A stretch of DNA of 64,000 bases, taken from the NCBI GenBank assembly GCA_964623775.1, contig CAZUVH010000001.1, positions 40,790-104,789 of the forward strand. The letters run 5' to 3'. Positions within the stretch are counted from its first letter, which is position 1, and each line of letters opens with the position of its first letter. The notes beneath the pieces were generated by a model, which saw nothing but the letters and a program-made list of their open reading frames with translations, ran no database searches and was not told the origin of the DNA. This DNA comes from an uncultured Candidatus Saccharibacteria bacterium (GTDB taxonomy: Bacteria > Patescibacteriota > Minisyncoccia > Phycocordibacterales > UBA2100). Shown here in pieces: positions 1 through 5,009 of the stretch. The translations under genes and the position numbers were made by a program.

Positions 1-673
1 GATTTGGATTTGTGCCGGTCACAGGATATGTCTGCGCAGTTGAGTATCCGCTCTTCGAGACGGTAATCTGATAATTACTCGCGGCGGGCGCGCCGATAAA
101 CGTGACCTCTCCATTTACATCGGAGTATGTGCGGATATTGATCGTGGGCGATGTGCTCGCGTTTACAATATCGACCTGCGCGTCATAGAGGGGTGCGTCC
201 ATTGCGTTCACGACCTTTATATTGAGTATGCCGCCAGGCACCGCCGTTTCTACGCCCTGCGGAGAGACGCGCCCGACAACAGTGACGCTGCGTGTCCCCT
301 GCTTCGACTGCCAAGATGTTTCTACGCGGATCGTTTTGAAATCGGCGACAATGCCGTTGGTATCGGCCACGCCGAGTCCATCTTCCGGATCGTCAGTGTA
401 TTCGACCGAGGTGCGGCGCGAATACACGATGCCGTCGGTCGTCGTCGCATTATCAAACTGCGGCACGTTGCCTGCCGGGATTCCCCCGATGACGCCGATT
501 TGCGAATACGTGAGTGATTTCAAATATTCCATGCGGTCGTTGCACAATGCAATCGCGCCAGCGCGCGCTTTGTTATTGCCGACGACGGTAAGTGACACTT
601 GAAATGCCGCGATAATGCCGACGAAAACAATCCCCATGAGAGCCGCCCCGACTAGAGTATCGATGAGCGTCAT
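1..673 (-). CDS. type IV pilin-like / pseudopilin, partial (reading frame runs off window start)
   Basis: The minus-strand frame from the ATG at 673-671 stays open to position 1. Its N-terminus, ...RDQRG|MTLIDTLVGAALMGIVFVGIIAAF, resembles a class III (prepilin) signal: Gly, then a hydrophobic helix with an acidic residue at +5. An in-frame upstream ATG would give a 24-aa leader. It lies just downstream of pilC in the same orientation. It is missing from the ORF track because there is no stop inside the window. Confidence 0.55.
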   Translation of the reverse strand, partial: MTLIDTLVGAALMGIVFVGIIAAFQVSLTVVGNNKARAGAIALCNDRMEYLKSLTYSQIGVIGGIPAGNVPQFDNATTTDGIVYSRRTSVEYTDDPEDGLGVADTNGIVADFKTIRVETSWQSKQGTRSVTVVGRVSPQGVETAVPGGILNIKVVNAMDAPLYDAQVDIVNASTSPTINIRTYSDVNGEVTFIGAPAASNYQITVSKSGYSTAQTYPVTGTNPN

Positions 674-770
674 GCCCCGCTGATCTCGCGTATGGCGTAT
701 GGCGTATGGCGTATGGCAGGTGTACGCAGTTGGATTTTCCTCCATACTCCATACTCCATACTCCATACGT

Positions 771-1985
771 TTAAATGTTGTTGCCCATCGAGTAGATCGG
801 CGCGATCATCGAGACCGCAAAAAATCCGACGGCGCCGCCGATAAAGAGCATGAGAATCGGCTCGATGACGGTGGAGAGATCTTTTGTCTTGCGGTCGACT
901 TCCTCTTCATAAAAGATGGCGAGACGCTTCATCATCTCATTGGTCTGTCCGGTCTCCTCGCCGACCGCCATCATTTCAGAGACGAATGGCGGATAAAGGT
1001 ACTCGTTGCGGCCAAATGTCTGCGAGAGCGGTTCGCCGCGGCGCACTGATTCCGACGCGCCGACTATCACCTCTTTGAAGTACGAATTTTGCACGACCTG
1101 TCCGACGATTTCGAGCGCCGTGAGGACATCCACGCCGGAAGAAAGGAGTGAGGCGAGTGTGCGTGACGTGCGCGCCGCATTTACCTCTCGGACAATTTGG
1201 CCAATCACCGGAATGCGCAAAAATGTCCAGTCCATCCCCCGATGGCCTATTTTTGTCCGCAGTGCGGCGACGATCATGCCTACGGCCACCATCACAATCA
1301 CGAGACTGAGGATGGTGTTTTGTGCCAAAAAGTCGCTGATTGCGATCACGACCTGAGTCGAGACCGGCAAATCAGCCCCGAGCTCCTTGAACGTCGCCGA
1401 CAAAGTCGGCACCACGGAAACCATCATGACGGCACCGATGCCGATGATCGCGACCACAATAATAGAAGGATAGATCAGGGCCCCGCGTATTTTTTTCTTG
1501 AGCGAATACATGCGATCCATCTGGTCGGCCACGACAGCGAGCGATCCCGGCAAGTCACCTCCCTCTTCTCCGGCACGCATCATCGCGATAAAGAGACGCG
1601 AAAAGACTTTGGGGAATTTCTCGAGCGCACCGTTCAAGGTCTCCCCGCGACGTACGTCGCCGGCAATCGAACTGATTACGCCAGCGAGCCTCGCGTTTTT
1701 CGTCTGGCGCTCCAAGACGGTGAGCGCGCGGGCAAGCGGCAAGCCGGCAGAGAGCATGGCGCCGAGATTGCGTGCAAAAAGGATTTTCTCGTACTCGCTC
1801 ACTCGAGAGAAAAGCGAGCTCCACCACTGCATGTTGAGGTACTTATTGCCCTGTTCTTCGGTGACGGAGATAATGCGACCACCCTCGCGTCGCACCATTG
1901 TGTAGAGTTCAAACCGATCGGCGGCTTCGGCAGATCCTTTGTACTGCTCGTCGTTTTTCTCCGCCGTGTACGTGAAATGAACCAT
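771..1985 (-). CDS. pilC: type IV pilus assembly protein PilC / T2SS protein F family (polytopic inner membrane platform)
   Basis: The 404-aa track ORF shows GspF/PilC-type conserved blocks and three TM regions. It sits in an operon with pilB. Confidence 0.9.
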   Translation of the reverse strand: MVHFTYTAEKNDEQYKGSAEAADRFELYTMVRREGGRIISVTEEQGNKYLNMQWWSSLFSRVSEYEKILFARNLGAMLSAGLPLARALTVLERQTKNARLAGVISSIAGDVRRGETLNGALEKFPKVFSRLFIAMMRAGEEGGDLPGSLAVVADQMDRMYSLKKKIRGALIYPSIIVVAIIGIGAVMMVSVVPTLSATFKELGADLPVSTQVVIAISDFLAQNTILSLVIVMVAVGMIVAALRTKIGHRGMDWTFLRIPVIGQIVREVNAARTSRTLASLLSSGVDVLTALEIVGQVVQNSYFKEVIVGASESVRRGEPLSQTFGRNEYLYPPFVSEMMAVGEETGQTNEMMKRLAIFYEEEVDRKTKDLSTVIEPILMLFIGGAVGFFAVSMIAPIYSMGNNI

Positions 1986-2040
1986 TACTCATAAGTATAG
2001 CGTATGGAGTATGGCGTATACCGGGAAAAAGCGGTACGTG

Positions 2041-2346
2041 TTAACGATCACTGGAACGCATGAGGCCCTTTATGAGAGCACCGACTGTATCGCTCCGGAT
2101 GTACAATTCAGAAAATTGTTCCTGCGAAATATAGTCGAGATCGCGCGAAATCATCAGTTGATTTTGCAATTCAGCGAGAGAGGTCTTCGCCATTGTGTAA
2201 AAGTGAAACTTATCTTTTGAAGAAAAACGGCCAAATCCTTCTGCGATGTTTGATGAAATTGAAACAGCCGCCCGCCTGCTCTGGTTCGCGAGTCCGAACT
2301 TTTCTTCGTTCGGATACTTCTTTGTGATTTTGTAGACAGCAAGCAC
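2041..2346 (-). CDS. four-helix-bundle protein (23S rRNA intervening-sequence protein family)
   Basis: VYKITKKYPNEEKFGLANQSRRAAVSISSNIAEGFGR matches the conserved core of this family. The frame stays open upstream to about 2388 (..FSDLKAWQKSHTF..) with no in-frame ATG. The track start is GTG, so the true N-terminus is uncertain. Confidence 0.65.
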   Translation of the reverse strand: MLAVYKITKKYPNEEKFGLANQSRRAAVSISSNIAEGFGRFSSKDKFHFYTMAKTSLAELQNQLMISRDLDYISQEQFSELYIRSDTVGALIKGLMRSSDR

Positions 2347-2427
2347 GAATGTGTGGGACTTTTGCCACGCTTTTAAATCTGAAAATCTCTAGATTTTGCC
2401 CTCCATACACAATACGCCATACTCTAT

Positions 2428-2455
2428 ACCTGATTTCTCCTACGGAGAAATCAGG
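2428..2455 (-). terminator. hairpin cctgatttctc-ctacg-gagaaatcagg straddling the DKNYY gene stop
   Basis: 11-bp perfect stem seen in the sequence. It may act as a terminator or attenuator inside the pilus operon. Confidence 0.4.
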
Positions 2456-3252
2456 ATTGGCGTCATGTCTGTCTCATCGCTTCCCGGTGTCACCACTGTG
2501 TCCACGATCACGCCGTCATTGAAAAGGTGTGAGCCGTCGACCGCATCCGCTGTCACGGTGCCTGAACCGTCGGATTTCTGAATGACTGTATCTTGAATTA
2601 CATGAAACGTATCGGGGTCGGCACCCACTACGATCACGAGCTCGAGCGTGCACGTCTCTCCCTGGCAGACCCAGCTGACTATATATACGTTGTTCGCGTC
2701 TTTCGCATACGTATCATTGAGAATTTGAAACGTCGCCGGATCGGCTGTGACTACGGTGGAGACCGAGGATTGCGTTGCTCCCGATTCTTGCGTGGTCGAC
2801 TGCGCGACAAAAACCTGGTCATTGTCGCGGTAGTACGTCACTGCAGTTTGCGAACCCGCCCCCGCATTACCAGGACTCTGCACCGACATCTTCTGTATCT
2901 CTGAGAACGTTGCGGGATCAGCCTCAGGTATCAGCGTGTAGGTGCCAGGCGGGGCGAGTTTATTTTTTTGAGTGCCACCGGTGCCCGCCGAAGCGACTGC
3001 GCTCGCGTTGTAGTACATACCTACAGGCGAGGAATAGACGAAGGAATCATACGAGATGAGCGACTGCGTGCCCGAACCATCAATCTCGACTTCCTCAGGC
3101 GCACCAGTCTGTGCAGCGATAGCAGCATTCCTCGCAGTCTCAAGTGATTCTTTGCTCCCGAAAATGTAATAGCTGAAAATACCTATCAGCACACTTGCGA
3201 GTCCGACAATCGCGACGGCGATGAGAGGCGACACTCCTCTTTCATTCGACAT
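2440..3252 (-). CDS. membrane-anchored DKNYY-repeat protein
   Basis: N-terminal TM anchor. Three repeats of the DPATF..I.....AKDANNVYI type (ADPATFSEI, ADPATFQILNDTYAKDANNVYI, ADPDTFHVI), typical of the DKNYY repeat family. Lies between pilB and pilC. Confidence 0.5.
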   Translation of the reverse strand: MSNERGVSPLIAVAIVGLASVLIGIFSYYIFGSKESLETARNAAIAAQTGAPEEVEIDGSGTQSLISYDSFVYSSPVGMYYNASAVASAGTGGTQKNKLAPPGTYTLIPEADPATFSEIQKMSVQSPGNAGAGSQTAVTYYRDNDQVFVAQSTTQESGATQSSVSTVVTADPATFQILNDTYAKDANNVYIVSWVCQGETCTLELVIVVGADPDTFHVIQDTVIQKSDGSGTVTADAVDGSHLFNDGVIVDTVVTPGSDETDMTPILISP

Positions 3253-3275
3253 ACCATTACTATCGCATGGATTCG

Positions 3276-5009
3276 CTACTCTGTAATGACTCTCAAGACC
3301 TCTTCAATGGTGGTGATGCCTTGAGCGGCTTTGAAGATGCCGTCTTCGCTCATGGTGAGCATACCTTCACTGTGCGCCTGCTTCGCGATCTCGTCACCTG
3401 TCGCATTTTTCATAATGAGTTCTTTGATGGTCGACGTGACGTTCATGACTTCGTAGATGCCGATACGTCCTGCATATCCCGTCGCGCACGCGGCGCTCGA
3501 TTTGGGCCGCGCGAACGAAATATTTTTCCACGTCGCGTCTTTTGCGATCACTTTTTCGTCTTTGAGCGCCTTGAGTACGATACCGGGATCGACGATATGC
3601 TCGAGCTGCGCCTGCTCATCGCGCGAAAGTTCGTACATGTCTTTCTCGGCACACAATCTTCGCACGAGGCGCTGTCCGATGACGGTACGCAATGTTGAGA
3701 CGAGGAGGAACGGCTCGATACCCATGTCGAGGAGGCGCGCGACGGCACCCGCAGCAGAGTTCGTGTGGAGCGTCGCGAGTACGAGGTGCCCGGTCAGAGA
3801 TGCATTGATCGCAAGCGACGCGGTCTCCTTGTCGCGGATTTCGCCGACCATGATGATGTCCGGATCCTGGCGCACGAGCGTGCGAAGACCGTTGGCAAAG
3901 GTGAAACCAATATCCGGACGCACCTGCGTCTGATTCACGCGCGCCATCTGGTATTCAATCGGATCTTCAATCGTTGAGATGTTTACGTTGGGCGTATTGA
4001 GGATATCGAGGAGCGTGTAGAGCGTCGTCGATTTACCGCTACCCGTCGGGCCTGTCGTGAGGATCATGCCTGTCGTCTTGCGCATCGCATCGTGCATGTG
4101 CTCAAGACCCGCACCGTGGAAGCCAATGCCCTCGAGTGTGAAGCCGGCGATGTTGTCGCGCAGCAAGCGCATGACGATCTTTTCACCAAAGTATGTGGGC
4201 AATATAGAGACGCGGAATGAAACTTTCTCGCCGCCACCTTCGGCACTGAAGCGACCGTCTTGCGGCAATCTCTTCTCGTCGAGTCGCATATTGGAGAGCA
4301 CCTTGAGGCGCGCAGTGATCGCAGCGGCCGCATGCTTGGGTAGCTCCATCGCATCGTGCAAGATACCGTCGATGCGATAGCGGATGAGGAGCGAGTCTTC
4401 GAGCGGCTCGATATGGATGTCGGACGCACCCTGCGCGCTCGCATGGCGCAAAAGTGTATCGACGATGCGTACCGCCGAGACGCCTTCTGCCATTTCCTTG
4501 AGATCTTGCTCTTTGTCGGAAGTCTTCGAGAGCGCTTCGGTCTCGTGTTTAATCACGTCGCCGAGATTGTCTTTGAGGGATTGTTGGTACTGCTTGAGCG
4601 CAGCCTTGACCGATGCAACATCCGTGAGGCGCGGCAGCACTTTCAGGTGCGTCTTCTTTTTAATGAAGTCGATCGCTGCGAGATCATCGGTGTCGAGCAT
4701 CGCGACTTCAAGCTCATTTGCATGATTACTGTACGCGATGATGTTGTTGCGTCTCGCGACAGGCTCGGGAATGAGTGAGAGTGTTTCGTACTTGATATTG
4801 GTCCCGACGAGCGAGACGAACGGGATACCGAGGATGTATGCATAGGTGCGGCGCAGCTCATCTTCGCCGATCGTATTGTGCGCAGTCAGGATCTCCGAGA
4901 CTGGCTTGCCGCTTTCTTTCGCCTCCTTCTCCGCCGCGTCAAAATCTTTTGCCGACACGAGTCCTGCATCGGCAAGAAACGTCTTCAGGTGCGAATCCGA
5001 AATGTACAT
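3276..5009 (-). CDS. pilB: type IV pilus assembly ATPase PilB (GspE family secretion ATPase)
   Basis: 577 aa with N-terminal GspII-like domain, Walker A GPTGSGKST, Asp box, His box and tetracysteine-like region. Canonical PilB/GspE architecture. Confidence 0.9.
   Translation of the reverse strand: MYISDSHLKTFLADAGLVSAKDFDAAEKEAKESGKPVSEILTAHNTIGEDELRRTYAYILGIPFVSLVGTNIKYETLSLIPEPVARRNNIIAYSNHANELEVAMLDTDDLAAIDFIKKKTHLKVLPRLTDVASVKAALKQYQQSLKDNLGDVIKHETEALSKTSDKEQDLKEMAEGVSAVRIVDTLLRHASAQGASDIHIEPLEDSLLIRYRIDGILHDAMELPKHAAAAITARLKVLSNMRLDEKRLPQDGRFSAEGGGEKVSFRVSILPTYFGEKIVMRLLRDNIAGFTLEGIGFHGAGLEHMHDAMRKTTGMILTTGPTGSGKSTTLYTLLDILNTPNVNISTIEDPIEYQMARVNQTQVRPDIGFTFANGLRTLVRQDPDIIMVGEIRDKETASLAINASLTGHLVLATLHTNSAAGAVARLLDMGIEPFLLVSTLRTVIGQRLVRRLCAEKDMYELSRDEQAQLEHIVDPGIVLKALKDEKVIAKDATWKNISFARPKSSAACATGYAGRIGIYEVMNVTSTIKELIMKNATGDEIAKQAHSEGMLTMSEDGIFKAAQGITTIEEVLRVITE

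What the first reader, a model, noticed from the sequence alone, without database searches (positions are those of the whole stretch)
686..2455. GTATGGC/GTATGGA heptad arrays in every intergenic spacer of the type IV pilus operon
Three separate spacers of the pilB-DKNYY-4HB-pilC-pilin operon carry the same 7-mer repeats. Between pilC and the pilin gene (~686-760) there are 3 tandem GTATGGC units followed by 3-4 units of the reverse complement CCATACT; the exact count is uncertain from hand reading. These can fold into a ~20-bp imperfect hairpin. Related units (gtatggagtatggcgtat, ccatac..gccatactc) flank the four-helix-bundle gene at ~1995-2030 and ~2400-2430. Recurring short direct and inverted heptads confined to one operon look like binding sites for an oligomeric regulator or attenuator structures that control pilin stoichiometry. 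They do not look like generic terminators.
Basis: seen in the sequence. Interest (0 to 1): 0.55.

Follow-up and report, generated by a model that had tools for sequence, protein, structure and literature searches.

The report
Heptad stems flanking a four-helix-bundle cassette
The 7-base repeats are not pilus-specific control sites but the paired arms of a small selfish-looking gene cassette (the kind first found inside 23S rRNA) inserted in a pilus operon, plus a gene-less copy of that cassette that now forms the start of the neighbouring pilin-like gene.

Summary
Four tandem 7-mer arrays lie in three junctions of a minus-strand pilB–DKNYY–4HB–pilC–pilin operon, and nowhere else in the 64 kb. 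They form two inverted pairs. Pair B (2399-2429 / 1994-2025) encloses the whole four-helix-bundle gene (PF05635, "23S rRNA intervening-sequence protein"). Pair A (741-769 / 688-717) is a 28-bp hairpin around a 23-nt loop.

Comparison shows this is a hallmark of the gene family, not of pili. Dozens of PF05635 genes, sitting in unrelated operons (dnaB|recR, thyX|tmk, polA, groEL), are flanked by inverted heptad arrays. The unit differs from locus to locus, but the two arms stay complementary.

Pair A is an internally deleted cassette. Its loop keeps the first codons and the 3' tail of a 4HB cassette. The pilin-like reading frame runs through it, so its upstream arm probably supplies the ATG and the hairpin encodes the prepilin leader.

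The closest precedent is the Coxiella 23S rRNA IVS, which has heptamers before the S23p ATG and a stem cut by RNase III. RNase III-type processing of the operon transcript is therefore my preferred mechanism. It is inferred, not shown, and a G·U wobble test gave no RNA-specific signal.

The parts
741..769 (-). Pair A, 5' arm on the sense (minus) strand: C + (GTATGGA)x4. It contains two ATGs in frame with the pilin-like ORF, at 766-764 and 745-743.
   Evidence: (I2). Public gene calls on identical contigs start the pilin-like ORF at exactly these ATGs. L001 position 3083 equals window 766, and L002 position 1509 equals window 745.
718..740 (-). Pair A loop (23 nt, GGAAAATCCAACTGCGTACACCT). Its 5' part matches the first codons of 4HB genes (ATGGAGG.AAAATCC). 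In relatives the 3' part of the loop matches the cassette 3' tail (ATTCCC next to the arm).
   Evidence: side-by-side comparison of solo hairpins and cassette ends.
688..717 (-). Pair A, 3' arm on the sense strand: (GCCATAC)x4 + GC. In the pilin-like frame it reads HTPYAIRHT.
1..766 (-). Pilin-like gene (595 aa in the longer contig L001, CarboxypepD_reg domain). The predicted prepilin leader MEENPTAYTCHTPYAIRHTRDQRG is followed by MTLIDTLVG. The ATG at 673-671 is therefore most likely residue +1 of the mature protein, not the start codon.
   Evidence: Relatives for comparison: L128 MRRTARSG|VSLID, L122 ...RRASRG|VTLID, L216 ...SSSRG|VTLID.
771..1985 (-). pilC (T2SSF, 404 aa). Its stop codon lies 4 nt before the first in-frame ATG of pair A.
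1994..2025 (-). Pair B, 3' arm of the 4HB cassette on the sense strand: ccc GGTATAC GCCATAC TCCATAC GCTATAC t. It ends 9 nt before the pilC ATG.
   Evidence: (I10, I18).
2041..2406 (-). Four-helix-bundle gene (PF05635 / TIGR02436). The ancestral ATG is at 2406-2404, inside the last heptad. A premature TAG lies at 2391-2389 (codon 6, CAG in relatives). The remaining ORF can restart only at GTG 2346 (101 aa), which loses the invariant Trp, so this is probably a pseudogene.
   Evidence: The identical sequence occurs in independent assembly L001.
2399..2429 (-). Pair B, 5' arm of the 4HB cassette on the sense strand: GTATAGA GTATGGC GTATTGT GTATGGA GGG.
2429..2455 (.). Perfect 12-bp hairpin (CCTGATTTCTCC gta GGAGAAATCAGG) spanning the DKNYY stop codon and abutting the first heptad. 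It is not part of the heptad system in relatives.
   Evidence: (I19).
2440..5009 (-). Upstream operon genes: DKNYY-domain gene (2440-3252) and pilB/T2SSE ATPase (3276-5009). A promoter-like site lies at 5046-5019.

Best explanation
The heptad arrays are the two complementary arms of an 'intervening-sequence-type' cassette. This is a small four-helix-bundle (PF05635/S23p) gene bracketed by inverted arrays of about four tandem 7-mers, inserted co-directionally between pilB/DKNYY and pilC.

The second pair, between pilC and the pilin-like gene, is a derivative of such a cassette that has lost the 4HB ORF by internal deletion. It keeps the cassette's ATG-bearing 5' arm, a few first codons, the 3' tail and the 3' arm. 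It is fused in frame to the pilin-like gene, so it now encodes the dispensable prepilin leader.

How it most likely works (inferred): in the polycistronic transcript each pair forms a duplex of about 25-30 bp with regular single mismatches. That duplex is a substrate for RNase III, as shown experimentally for the Coxiella 23S rRNA IVS, which has the same ORF family, heptamers before the ATG and a 28-bp stem. Cleavage would excise the 4HB segment and cut the operon mRNA into pilB-DKNYY, pilC and pilin pieces. For pair A, either the stem or its cleavage would hide or remove the pilin-like gene's start codon.

Confidence differs by step. Identity and origin of the repeats (cassette arms plus deleted derivative): about 0.85. 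RNA-level RNase III processing as the operating mechanism: about 0.45.
For: (1) The gene between the degenerate arrays is PF05635, E = 2e-31, and TIGR02436.

(2) The arms pair across the gene in the MFE fold. Pair A has dG -41.8 kcal/mol, z = -5.6.

(3) All syntenic relatives have GTATGGA-type arrays before the 4HB ATG and CCATAC-type arrays after its stop. These are L122, L124, L128 and L216, all with nusA..pilB-4HB-pilC-pilin synteny, at 59-76% protein identity. In several of them (window, L122, L124) the ATG lies inside the last unit. L131, in a T4SS-like operon, uses GTATTTC/GAAATAC instead.

(4) Eighty further PF05635 loci were examined.
- Lag-7 periodicity appears in at least one flank in 37 of 67 evaluable loci, against 0.6% of shuffled flanks. 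Periods 5, 6 and 9 appear in at most 1 locus, and period 8 in 8 loci.
- Arm complementarity exceeds the 95th percentile of mismatched locus pairs in 42 of 67 loci.
- Period-7 arrays are 26 times denser within about 100 nt of 4HB ORF ends than elsewhere in the same loci.

(5) In 28 of 32 loci the cassettes have co-oriented ORFs on both sides, and the neighbours are unrelated housekeeping genes. None of 40 loci tested lies in rRNA.

(6) The solo hairpin loops keep the 4HB start region and the cassette 3' tail.

(7) The pilin-like frame is open through the hairpin from an in-frame ATG in five genomes (window, L122, L216, L100, L066). In four of these the ATG lies in the last upstream unit; in L216 it overlaps the last two units. 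L128 lacks the hairpin and has an ordinary 8-residue leader.

(8) Precedent: the Coxiella IVS has three tandem heptamers GACAGAT before the S23p ATG and a 28-bp terminal stem. RNase III cleavage was mapped at the first heptamer, and the ORF is decaying (PMC4990558).
Against: No transcript or cleavage data exist for this organism, and no RNase III gene was found in the 64-kb window (motif search).

Mismatches in 39 cassette stems show no sense-strand wobble bias: 36 G·U against 43 A·C. Arm complementarity could therefore be kept at the DNA level, for example by template switching or gene conversion between inverted repeats, rather than by selection on RNA.

RNase III cleavage of pair A would remove the only available start codon of the pilin-like gene in L122, L100 and L066. 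That is awkward unless the hairpin acts as a negative control element or is simply tolerated.

Heptad arrays also occur widely without 4HB genes. None of 119 loci carrying GTATGGC x3 encodes a 4HB protein, and only 15 of them have an inverted partner.
Confidence: 0.6

Rival explanations
1. DNA-level element only. The inverted heptad arrays are terminal inverted repeats of a mobile or formerly mobile cassette, and pair A is its MITE-like derivative. The complementarity is produced and kept by DNA processes (hairpin or cruciform formation, template-switch repair, gene conversion), and the RNA structure has no function.
For: There is no G·U over A·C bias in 39 stems. Pair A is an internal-deletion derivative. 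The solo hairpin is present or absent among syntenic relatives: L128 has a 20-nt spacer. Units are homogenised within a genome. L216 uses GTATGAA/TTCATAC in both its cassette and its solo hairpin, and the solo 3' arm is the exact reverse complement of the cassette 5' arm over 26 nt.
Against: No transposase or recombinase is associated with the cassettes. The arms are not conserved across the family, as recognition TIRs normally are. Orientation is co-directional with host operons in 28 of 32 loci. The pilB|pilC cassette has stayed at one site while its protein diverged to 59% identity, which argues against active mobility.
Confidence: 0.25
2. Co-opted translational control of the pilin-like gene. 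Pair A sequesters the start codon in a -42 kcal/mol stem. The gene is then translated only when ribosomes finishing pilC (stop codon 4 nt upstream of the first in-frame ATG) melt the stem. This would couple pilin-like protein output to pilC.
For: In-frame ATGs lie at 766-764 and 745-743, inside the 5' arm. The pilC TAA is at 773-771. The same layout occurs in L122 and L216 at the pilC|pilin junction and in L100 and L066 before other pilin genes.
Against: The layout is what any in-frame fusion of a deleted cassette to a tolerant leader peptide would give. L128 manages with a plain 20-nt spacer. There are no expression data. In the window an alternative ATG (673) exists just after the hairpin.
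Confidence: 0.25
3. One reading: pilus-operon-specific binding sites for an oligomeric regulator, or attenuators that set pilin stoichiometry.
For: Within the window the arrays are confined to this operon. In CPR genomes carrying the same GTATGGC unit, three of four hits lie next to pilin or pilC genes (L066, L079, L100).
Against: The same architecture flanks 4HB genes in many unrelated operons, with unrelated unit sequences. The pair B arms are not independent local structures. No terminator features are present. The CPR pilus-associated copies are explained by inheritance or spread of one cassette lineage.
Confidence: 0.07
4. Phase-variation switch. Slippage of 7-nt units between the start codon and the mature pilin-like sequence shifts the frame and switches the protein on and off.
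For: The unit length is not a multiple of 3, and the arrays lie inside the ORF. Heptamer copy number varies among Coxiella strains (PMC4990558).
Against: Simulation shows that with at least 3 upstream units, any 2-6 downstream units still leave an in-frame ATG with no stop. GTATGGA x3 offers an ATG in all three frames, and both arms are stop-free in every sense frame. Only four copies are present per arm. The two independent assemblies L001 and L002 are 100% identical to the window.
Confidence: 0.05

Closest known systems
ORF-containing intervening sequence (IVS) of 23S rRNA (Coxiella burnetii, Leptospira, Brucella, Xanthomonas type; S23p/PF05635 ORF)
   Same: The ORF family is the same (PF05635). 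The ORF is in sense orientation in a host transcript. Terminal complementary sequences form a stem of about 28 bp that encloses the ORF. Tandem heptamers lie immediately before the ATG. The ORF is decaying: S23p in Coxiella, and a premature TAG here. RNase III excision was shown for the rRNA versions (PMC4990558).
   Different: Here the host transcript is a protein-coding operon, not 23S rRNA. No rRNA occurs in the window or in 40 related loci. The whole stem is built from heptad units on both sides. A gene-less derivative is embedded in a neighbouring ORF. Processing is untested.
Heptanucleotide tandem repeats of bacterial intergenic regions (cyanobacterial STRR; TAACTGA repeats of Beggiatoaceae; Geobacter GGGACCG/MTYCTGA elements)
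   Same: These are short arrays (2-6 units) of 7-mers between genes, often directly upstream of start codons. They are phylogenetically scattered and of unknown function (PMC4679880, PMC2700814).
   Different: Those are described mainly as direct repeats, and the papers read do not report a link to a gene family. Here the arrays come as inverted pairs bracketing a PF05635 gene or its remnant.
MITEs / internally deleted non-autonomous derivatives of mobile elements
   Same: Pair A keeps both ends of the cassette and lacks the internal gene. It is present or absent among close relatives.
   Different: No transposase is present, no clear target-site duplication was found, and only a single solo copy occurs in 64 kb. 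The arms are tandem heptads rather than a unique TIR.
Avd, the accessory protein of diversity-generating retroelements (bAvd, PF22296)
   Same: It has a homologous four-helix-bundle fold. XCC0516 (2GSC) has five chains in the crystal and was described as a homopentamer in PMC4990558.
   Different: The DGR-Avd equivalog model scores 28 bits against a cut-off of 80. The immediate neighbours are pilus genes, not a reverse transcriptase.

Membership tests
ORF-type 23S rRNA intervening sequence (IVS) | Encodes a PF05635 / S23p four-helix-bundle ORF | tested here: met
   PF05635 E = 2.4e-31, 108.5 bits against cut-off 33.8. TIGR02436 105.9 bits against cut-off 24.
ORF-type 23S rRNA intervening sequence (IVS) | Terminal complementary sequences form a stem that encloses the ORF | tested here: met
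   Arms 1995-2019 and 2401-2429 are complementary (I10/I18). They pair in the MFE and centroid folds of 1980-2460. The downstream arm alone does not fold.
ORF-type 23S rRNA intervening sequence (IVS) | Tandem heptamers immediately upstream of the ORF start (described for Coxiella) | tested here: met
   GTATAGA GTATGGC GTATTGT GTATGGA, with the ATG inside the last unit. The Coxiella description is in PMC4990558.
ORF-type 23S rRNA intervening sequence (IVS) | Inserted in a 23S rRNA helix | tested here: not met
   Rfam finds only four tRNAs in the window. The element lies between protein-coding genes.
ORF-type 23S rRNA intervening sequence (IVS) | Excised from the transcript by RNase III | not testable with these tools
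   This needs RNA end mapping or an in-vitro cleavage assay.
Rho-independent terminator / attenuator | GC-rich stem followed by a U-tract on the transcribed strand | tested here: not met
   No minus-strand terminator-like site lies in 680-780, 1990-2040 or 2395-2440. Pair A is followed by GCGAGATCAGCGGGGCATG.
MITE-like non-autonomous element | Both termini of a parent element retained, internal part deleted | tested here: met
   The loop keeps ATGGAGG.AAAATCC (the 4HB start). In relatives it also keeps ATTCCC next to the 3' arm.
MITE-like non-autonomous element | Target-site duplication and many dispersed copies | tested here: inconclusive
   Comparison of the filled sites (window, L122) with the empty site (L128) gives no clear duplication. 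Only one solo copy occurs in the 64-kb window.
DGR accessory protein Avd | Scores above the NF033474 equivalog cut-off | tested here: not met
   28 bits against a cut-off of 80.
Contingency-locus simple sequence repeat (phase variation) | A change in copy number switches the downstream ORF out of frame | tested here: not met
   Simulated copy numbers of 2-6 keep an in-frame ATG whenever at least 3 upstream units are present.

The most novel reading that the evidence does not exclude
Heptad-armed PF05635 cassettes are a widespread and largely undescribed class of operon-resident elements, that is, 'IVSs outside rRNA'. Their arms would be read sequence-specifically by their own pentameric four-helix-bundle protein, one subunit per 7-nt unit across about 4-5 units.

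This would explain three things. The unit sequence is locus- or genome-specific. It is homogenised between a cassette and its gene-less copies within one genome (window: GTATGGM in both; L216: GTATGAA in both). And gene-less copies persist at gene starts, where they could place host genes such as pilins under the control of the element's protein.
Probability: 0.15. Interest if true: 0.85.

Novelty: new variant of a known kind. Interest (0 to 1): 0.6.

Why it matters
PF05635 'four helix bundle protein' is one of the commonest unexplained small gene families in bacterial genomes, and especially in CPR genomes. Heptanucleotide arrays are a long-standing unexplained feature of intergenic DNA. The evidence here links the two. 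Most PF05635 genes examined sit between inverted, co-varying heptad arrays inside ordinary operons, just like the RNase III-processed IVS of 23S rRNA.

If confirmed, IVS elements are not an rRNA oddity. They would be a general class of transcript-embedded cassettes that can fragment polycistronic mRNAs. They also leave gene-less hairpins that are recruited as start-codon and leader regions of genes such as pilins.

There are practical consequences for annotation. The pilin-like gene's start is mis-assigned if the hairpin is taken for a spacer, and the 4HB gene in this window is a pseudogene.

Tried and rejected
- I looked for an empty site using the contigs that encode the identical PilC (L001, L002). 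They are 100% identical to the window, so they are uninformative.
- I asked whether GTATGGC arrays elsewhere mark 4HB genes. In 119 loci from diverse phyla, tblastn found none and a family HMM found none, and only 15 of the 119 have an inverted partner. The association therefore runs one way: 4HB genes have heptad arms, but heptad arrays do not imply a 4HB gene.
- A G·U versus A·C wobble test for RNA-level selection showed no bias (36 against 43).
- Rfam returned nothing at gathering score for the window or at E <= 1 for 600-2600.
- The promoter and terminator scan found nothing in the spacers on the sense strand.
- The phase-variation idea was rejected by the slippage simulation.
- A motif search for RNase III in the window found nothing.
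- The literature search found heptamers next to a PF05635 ORF only in the Coxiella IVS paper. No general description turned up in the searchable library. This does not exclude subscription-journal literature.
Full report
**1. Observation**

The operon lies on the minus strand:
- pilB/T2SSE: 3276-5009
- a DKNYY-domain gene: 2440-3252
- a four-helix-bundle (4HB) gene: 2041-2346 as listed
- pilC/T2SSF: 771-1985
- a large pilin-like gene that runs off the left end of the window.

Tandem Repeats Finder reports four period-7 arrays:
- 688-717: 4.3 copies, 100% match
- 740-768: 4.1 copies, 100% match
- 1994-2019: 3.7 copies, 78% match
- 2401-2429: 4.1 copies, 72% match

The pattern GTATGGMGTATGG with up to 1 mismatch gives 10 hits, all inside 690-2429. 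Shuffles give 0.09.

The arrays form two inverted pairs.
- Pair A (689-716 / 742-769) is a hairpin of 6-bp blocks separated by single mismatches, about 28 bp in all, around a 23-nt loop. dG is -41.8 kcal/mol, z = -5.6.
- Pair B (1995-2019 / 2401-2429) brackets the whole 4HB gene. The two arms pair with each other in the MFE and centroid folds of 1980-2460. The downstream arm tested alone (1990-2035) does not fold, z = -0.7.

The pilB-DKNYY junction has no heptads. On the sense strand none of the arrays is followed by a U-tract. Rfam has no match.

**2. The bracketed gene**

It is a member of PF05635, '23S rRNA-intervening sequence protein' (E = 2e-31). It also matches TIGR02436, 'four helix bundle protein'. 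It falls well below the DGR-Avd equivalog cut-off (28 bits against 80).

On the sense strand the sequence reads ATG GAG GGC AAA ATC TAG AGA TTT TCA GAT TTA AAA GCG TGG. The ancestral ATG (2406-2404) lies inside the last heptad. Codon 6 is TAG, where relatives have CAG.

Only a GTG restart at 2346 is left. That restart loses the invariant Trp of the family. The copy is therefore probably a pseudogene. The independent assembly L001 has the identical sequence.

**3. Relatives at the same site**

Homologues at 59-76% identity lie in the same synteny, nusA...pilB-4HB-pilC-pilin. They are L122, L124, L128 and L216, the last from a Candidatus Kaiserbacteria MAG.
- In every one, GTATGGA-type units precede the 4HB ATG and CCATAC-type units follow the stop.
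- The variable positions of the unit change together in the two arms. The window has C with G, L124 has T with A, and L128 has G with C. L216 uses GTATGAA with TTCATAC.
- A homologue in a different, T4SS-like operon (L131, before PrgI and TraC-like genes) has GTATTTC/GTATCTG upstream and GAAATAC/CAGATAC downstream.

**4. Family-wide test**

A profile of 25 homologues retrieved 80 further PF05635 loci from metagenomes. Inspection shows inverted arrays whose unit is locus-specific, for example GTAGCTA/ATACAAG, GGCCAGG/CCTGGCC, GTTCTCA/TGAGAAC, GTACCAA/TTGGTAC, GGAGTCA/TGACTCC, GGATTGA/TCAATCC and GTAGGCA/TGCCTAC.

Quantitative results:
- Of 67 evaluable loci, 37 show strong lag-7 periodicity in at least one flank, against 0.6% of shuffled flanks. 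Period 8 is seen in 8 loci, and periods 5, 6 and 9 in at most 1.
- Upstream-downstream complementarity exceeds the 95th percentile of mismatched locus pairs in 42 of 67 loci, and the 99th percentile in 28 of 67.
- Period-7 arrays are 3.3 per kb within about 100 nt of the 4HB ORF ends, against 0.13 per kb elsewhere in the same loci.
- In 28 of 32 loci with enough flank, co-oriented ORFs abut the cassette on both sides.

The neighbours are unrelated. They include dnaB|recR, thyX|tmk, polA, groEL, prfB, porA, an amidase, leuA, sdhA, fadB, a solute-binding protein, and once more pilB (L190). None of 40 loci tested contains rRNA.

The heptad arms therefore belong to the 4HB gene family, not to pili.

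The converse does not hold. The exact 20-mer (GTATGGC x3) occurs in more than 119 places in very diverse bacteria. None of those loci encodes a 4HB protein, and only 15 have an inverted partner within 600 nt. Heptanucleotide arrays as such are a known, common and unexplained class of bacterial repeats (PMC4679880, PMC2700814).

**5. Pair A is a cassette that lost its gene**

Solo hairpins of the same type occur in five other places:
- at the pilC|pilin junction of L122 and L216
- before other pilin genes in two Kaiserbacteria MAGs (L100, L066)
- directly before pilC in L079, the place where the window carries the full cassette.

Their loops begin with the first 15-20 nt of a 4HB ORF. Compare ATGGAGGAAAATCC in the window with ATGGAGGGAAAAATCC at the L124 4HB start. 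In the relatives the loops end with the cassette 3' tail, ATTCCC, abutting the 3' arm. All fold significantly better than shuffles, z from -3.1 to -5.6.

L128, a syntenic relative, has only a 20-nt spacer. The solo element is therefore either a gain or a loss.

**6. The 'spacer' is coding**

In the window, L122, L216, L100 and L066 the pilin-like frame is open through the entire hairpin, starting from an in-frame ATG in the upstream arm. In four of the five that ATG lies in the last upstream unit; in L216 it overlaps the last two units. The predicted leaders run up to the G|(F/V/M)TLI(D/E) prepilin motif:
- window: MEENPTAYTCHTPYAIRHTRDQRG|MTLID
- L122: MGREIPDVESHSRHTPYAIRHTRRASRG|VTLID
- L216: MKYGANTSAWLRFHTSYFIHDTSYISSSRG|VTLID
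- L100: MEEKTQKKANQTSRHTPYAIRHTRG|FTLIE
- L128, which has no hairpin: MRRTARSG|VSLID.

L122, L100 and L066 have no other possible start codon. Gene callers on the identical contigs L001 and L002 start the ORF at window 766 and 745, both inside the arm. The ATG at 673 is thus most likely residue +1 of the mature protein.

A cleaved leader peptide is a place where an insertion is tolerated. That may be why these copies survive at pilin genes; this is my inference.

**7. Properties of the arrays**

(GTATGGA)x3 offers an ATG in all three frames, and neither arm contains a stop in any sense frame. A simulation with 2-6 units per arm keeps an in-frame ATG whenever at least 3 upstream units are present. 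The arrangement is robust to slippage, so a simple on/off phase switch is unlikely.

Within a genome the unit is shared between the cassette and the solo copy. The window has GTATGGM in both. In L216 the solo 3' arm is the exact reverse complement of the cassette 5' arm over 26 nt. This indicates concerted evolution. It also means that alternative long-range pairings, enclosing pilC alone or 4HB plus pilC, are possible (I1 and I3).

**8. Mechanism**

The only experimentally studied relatives are the ORF-containing IVSs of 23S rRNA. In Coxiella the IVS carries an S23p (PF05635) ORF. It has three tandem heptamers (GACAGAT) plus a degenerate fourth directly before the ATG, and their copy number varies between strains. 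It also has a 28-bp terminal stem that RNase III cuts at the first heptamer. The ORF is decaying and apparently untranslated (PMC4990558).

By analogy I propose that the arms pair in the operon transcript and are cut by RNase III. This would excise the 4HB segment and separate the pilB-DKNYY, pilC and pilin segments. That step is inferred.

Evidence that weakens it:
- There is no sense-strand G·U excess among stem mismatches (36 G·U against 43 A·C, 115 other, 1052 Watson-Crick).
- No RNase III gene is visible in the window.
- Cutting pair A would remove the pilin-like gene's start codon.

A purely DNA-level explanation (inverted-repeat maintenance by template switching or gene conversion, mobile-element ends) therefore remains a serious rival. 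A co-opted translational-coupling role for pair A is also possible, since the pilC stop lies 4 nt before the first in-frame ATG.

**9. Comparison with known systems, and novelty**

The cassette meets three descriptive features of ORF-type IVSs: the ORF family, the enclosing stem, and heptamers at the ATG. It fails the defining location, since it is in mRNA and not in 23S rRNA. RNase III excision could not be tested. It is not a DGR Avd, not a terminator, and only partly MITE-like.

In the searchable literature I found heptamers next to a PF05635 ORF described only for Coxiella. I found no description of the family-wide inverted-heptad architecture in operons, nor of gene-less derivatives forming pilin leaders. 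I cannot exclude such descriptions outside the open-access library.

I rate it a new variant of a known kind.

**10. Verdict**

- The pilus-specific regulatory interpretation is not supported.
- The arrays are the arms of an IVS-type 4HB cassette and of its deleted derivative.
- Interest is moderate to high because the result generalises well beyond this window.

Noticed in passing
window 2389-2406 (minus strand): The 4HB gene has a premature TAG at codon 6 (CAG in relatives). Only a GTG restart at 2346 remains, which loses the invariant Trp. It is probably a pseudogene, mirroring the decaying S23p ORF of the Coxiella IVS.
   Followed up: yes
window 2429-2455 and 2440-3252: A DKNYY-domain gene lies between pilB and the 4HB cassette. 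It is absent at this position in the syntenic relatives L122, L124, L128 and L216. A perfect 12-bp hairpin with a 3-nt loop spans its stop codon and abuts the first heptad.
   Followed up: partly
window 671-673: The ATG that looks like the pilin-like gene's start follows a ...RG motif and aligns with residue +1 of the prepilin cleavage site in relatives. Annotations that start there would miss the leader.
   Followed up: yes
L122 5664-5790: The solo hairpin at the pilC|pilin junction has a duplicated upstream arm: two arrays of four GTATGGR-type units separated by 14 nt, facing a single downstream arm.
   Followed up: partly
L216 3950-4000, 4372-4420 and 5633-5730: Within one genome the cassette arms and the solo hairpin share a lineage-specific unit (GTATGAA/TTCATAC). 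The solo 3' arm is the exact reverse complement of the cassette 5' arm over 26 nt. This indicates concerted evolution or recognition by a common factor.
   Followed up: partly
L163 2330-2830 and 3174-3223: Two 4HB genes lie in tandem, the second with an early stop. They are separated by a direct copy of the upstream AGTAGGT array, and the inverted arm appears only after the second gene.
   Followed up: no
L180 635-712; L144 5135-5208; L137 294-441: Further gene-less inverted heptad hairpins occur in contigs that also carry a 4HB cassette. In L144 the units resemble those of the cassette. In L180 they differ.
   Followed up: partly
L003-L121: The exact 20-mer (GTATGGC)x3 occurs in more than 119 places across very diverse phyla. 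It is often embedded in longer arrays of drifting 7-mers (GCGTGAG, GCGTACG, GCCATAA). Some MAGs carry many copies: an Acidobacteria MAG, JAEZDP01, has at least 12 contigs with hits, and a Flavobacteriales MAG, QIJL01, has at least 6.
   Followed up: partly
L190 729-2866: A distant 4HB homologue (41% identity) on a TARA ocean contig again sits directly downstream of a pilB/T2SSE gene. The pilB junction may be a recurrent or ancient site.
   Followed up: no
L200 2303-2348: An Acido-Lenti-1 sRNA (Rfam RF01687, 55.7 bits) lies about 75 nt upstream of a heptad array (2423-2468) on a contig that carries a 4HB gene.
   Followed up: no
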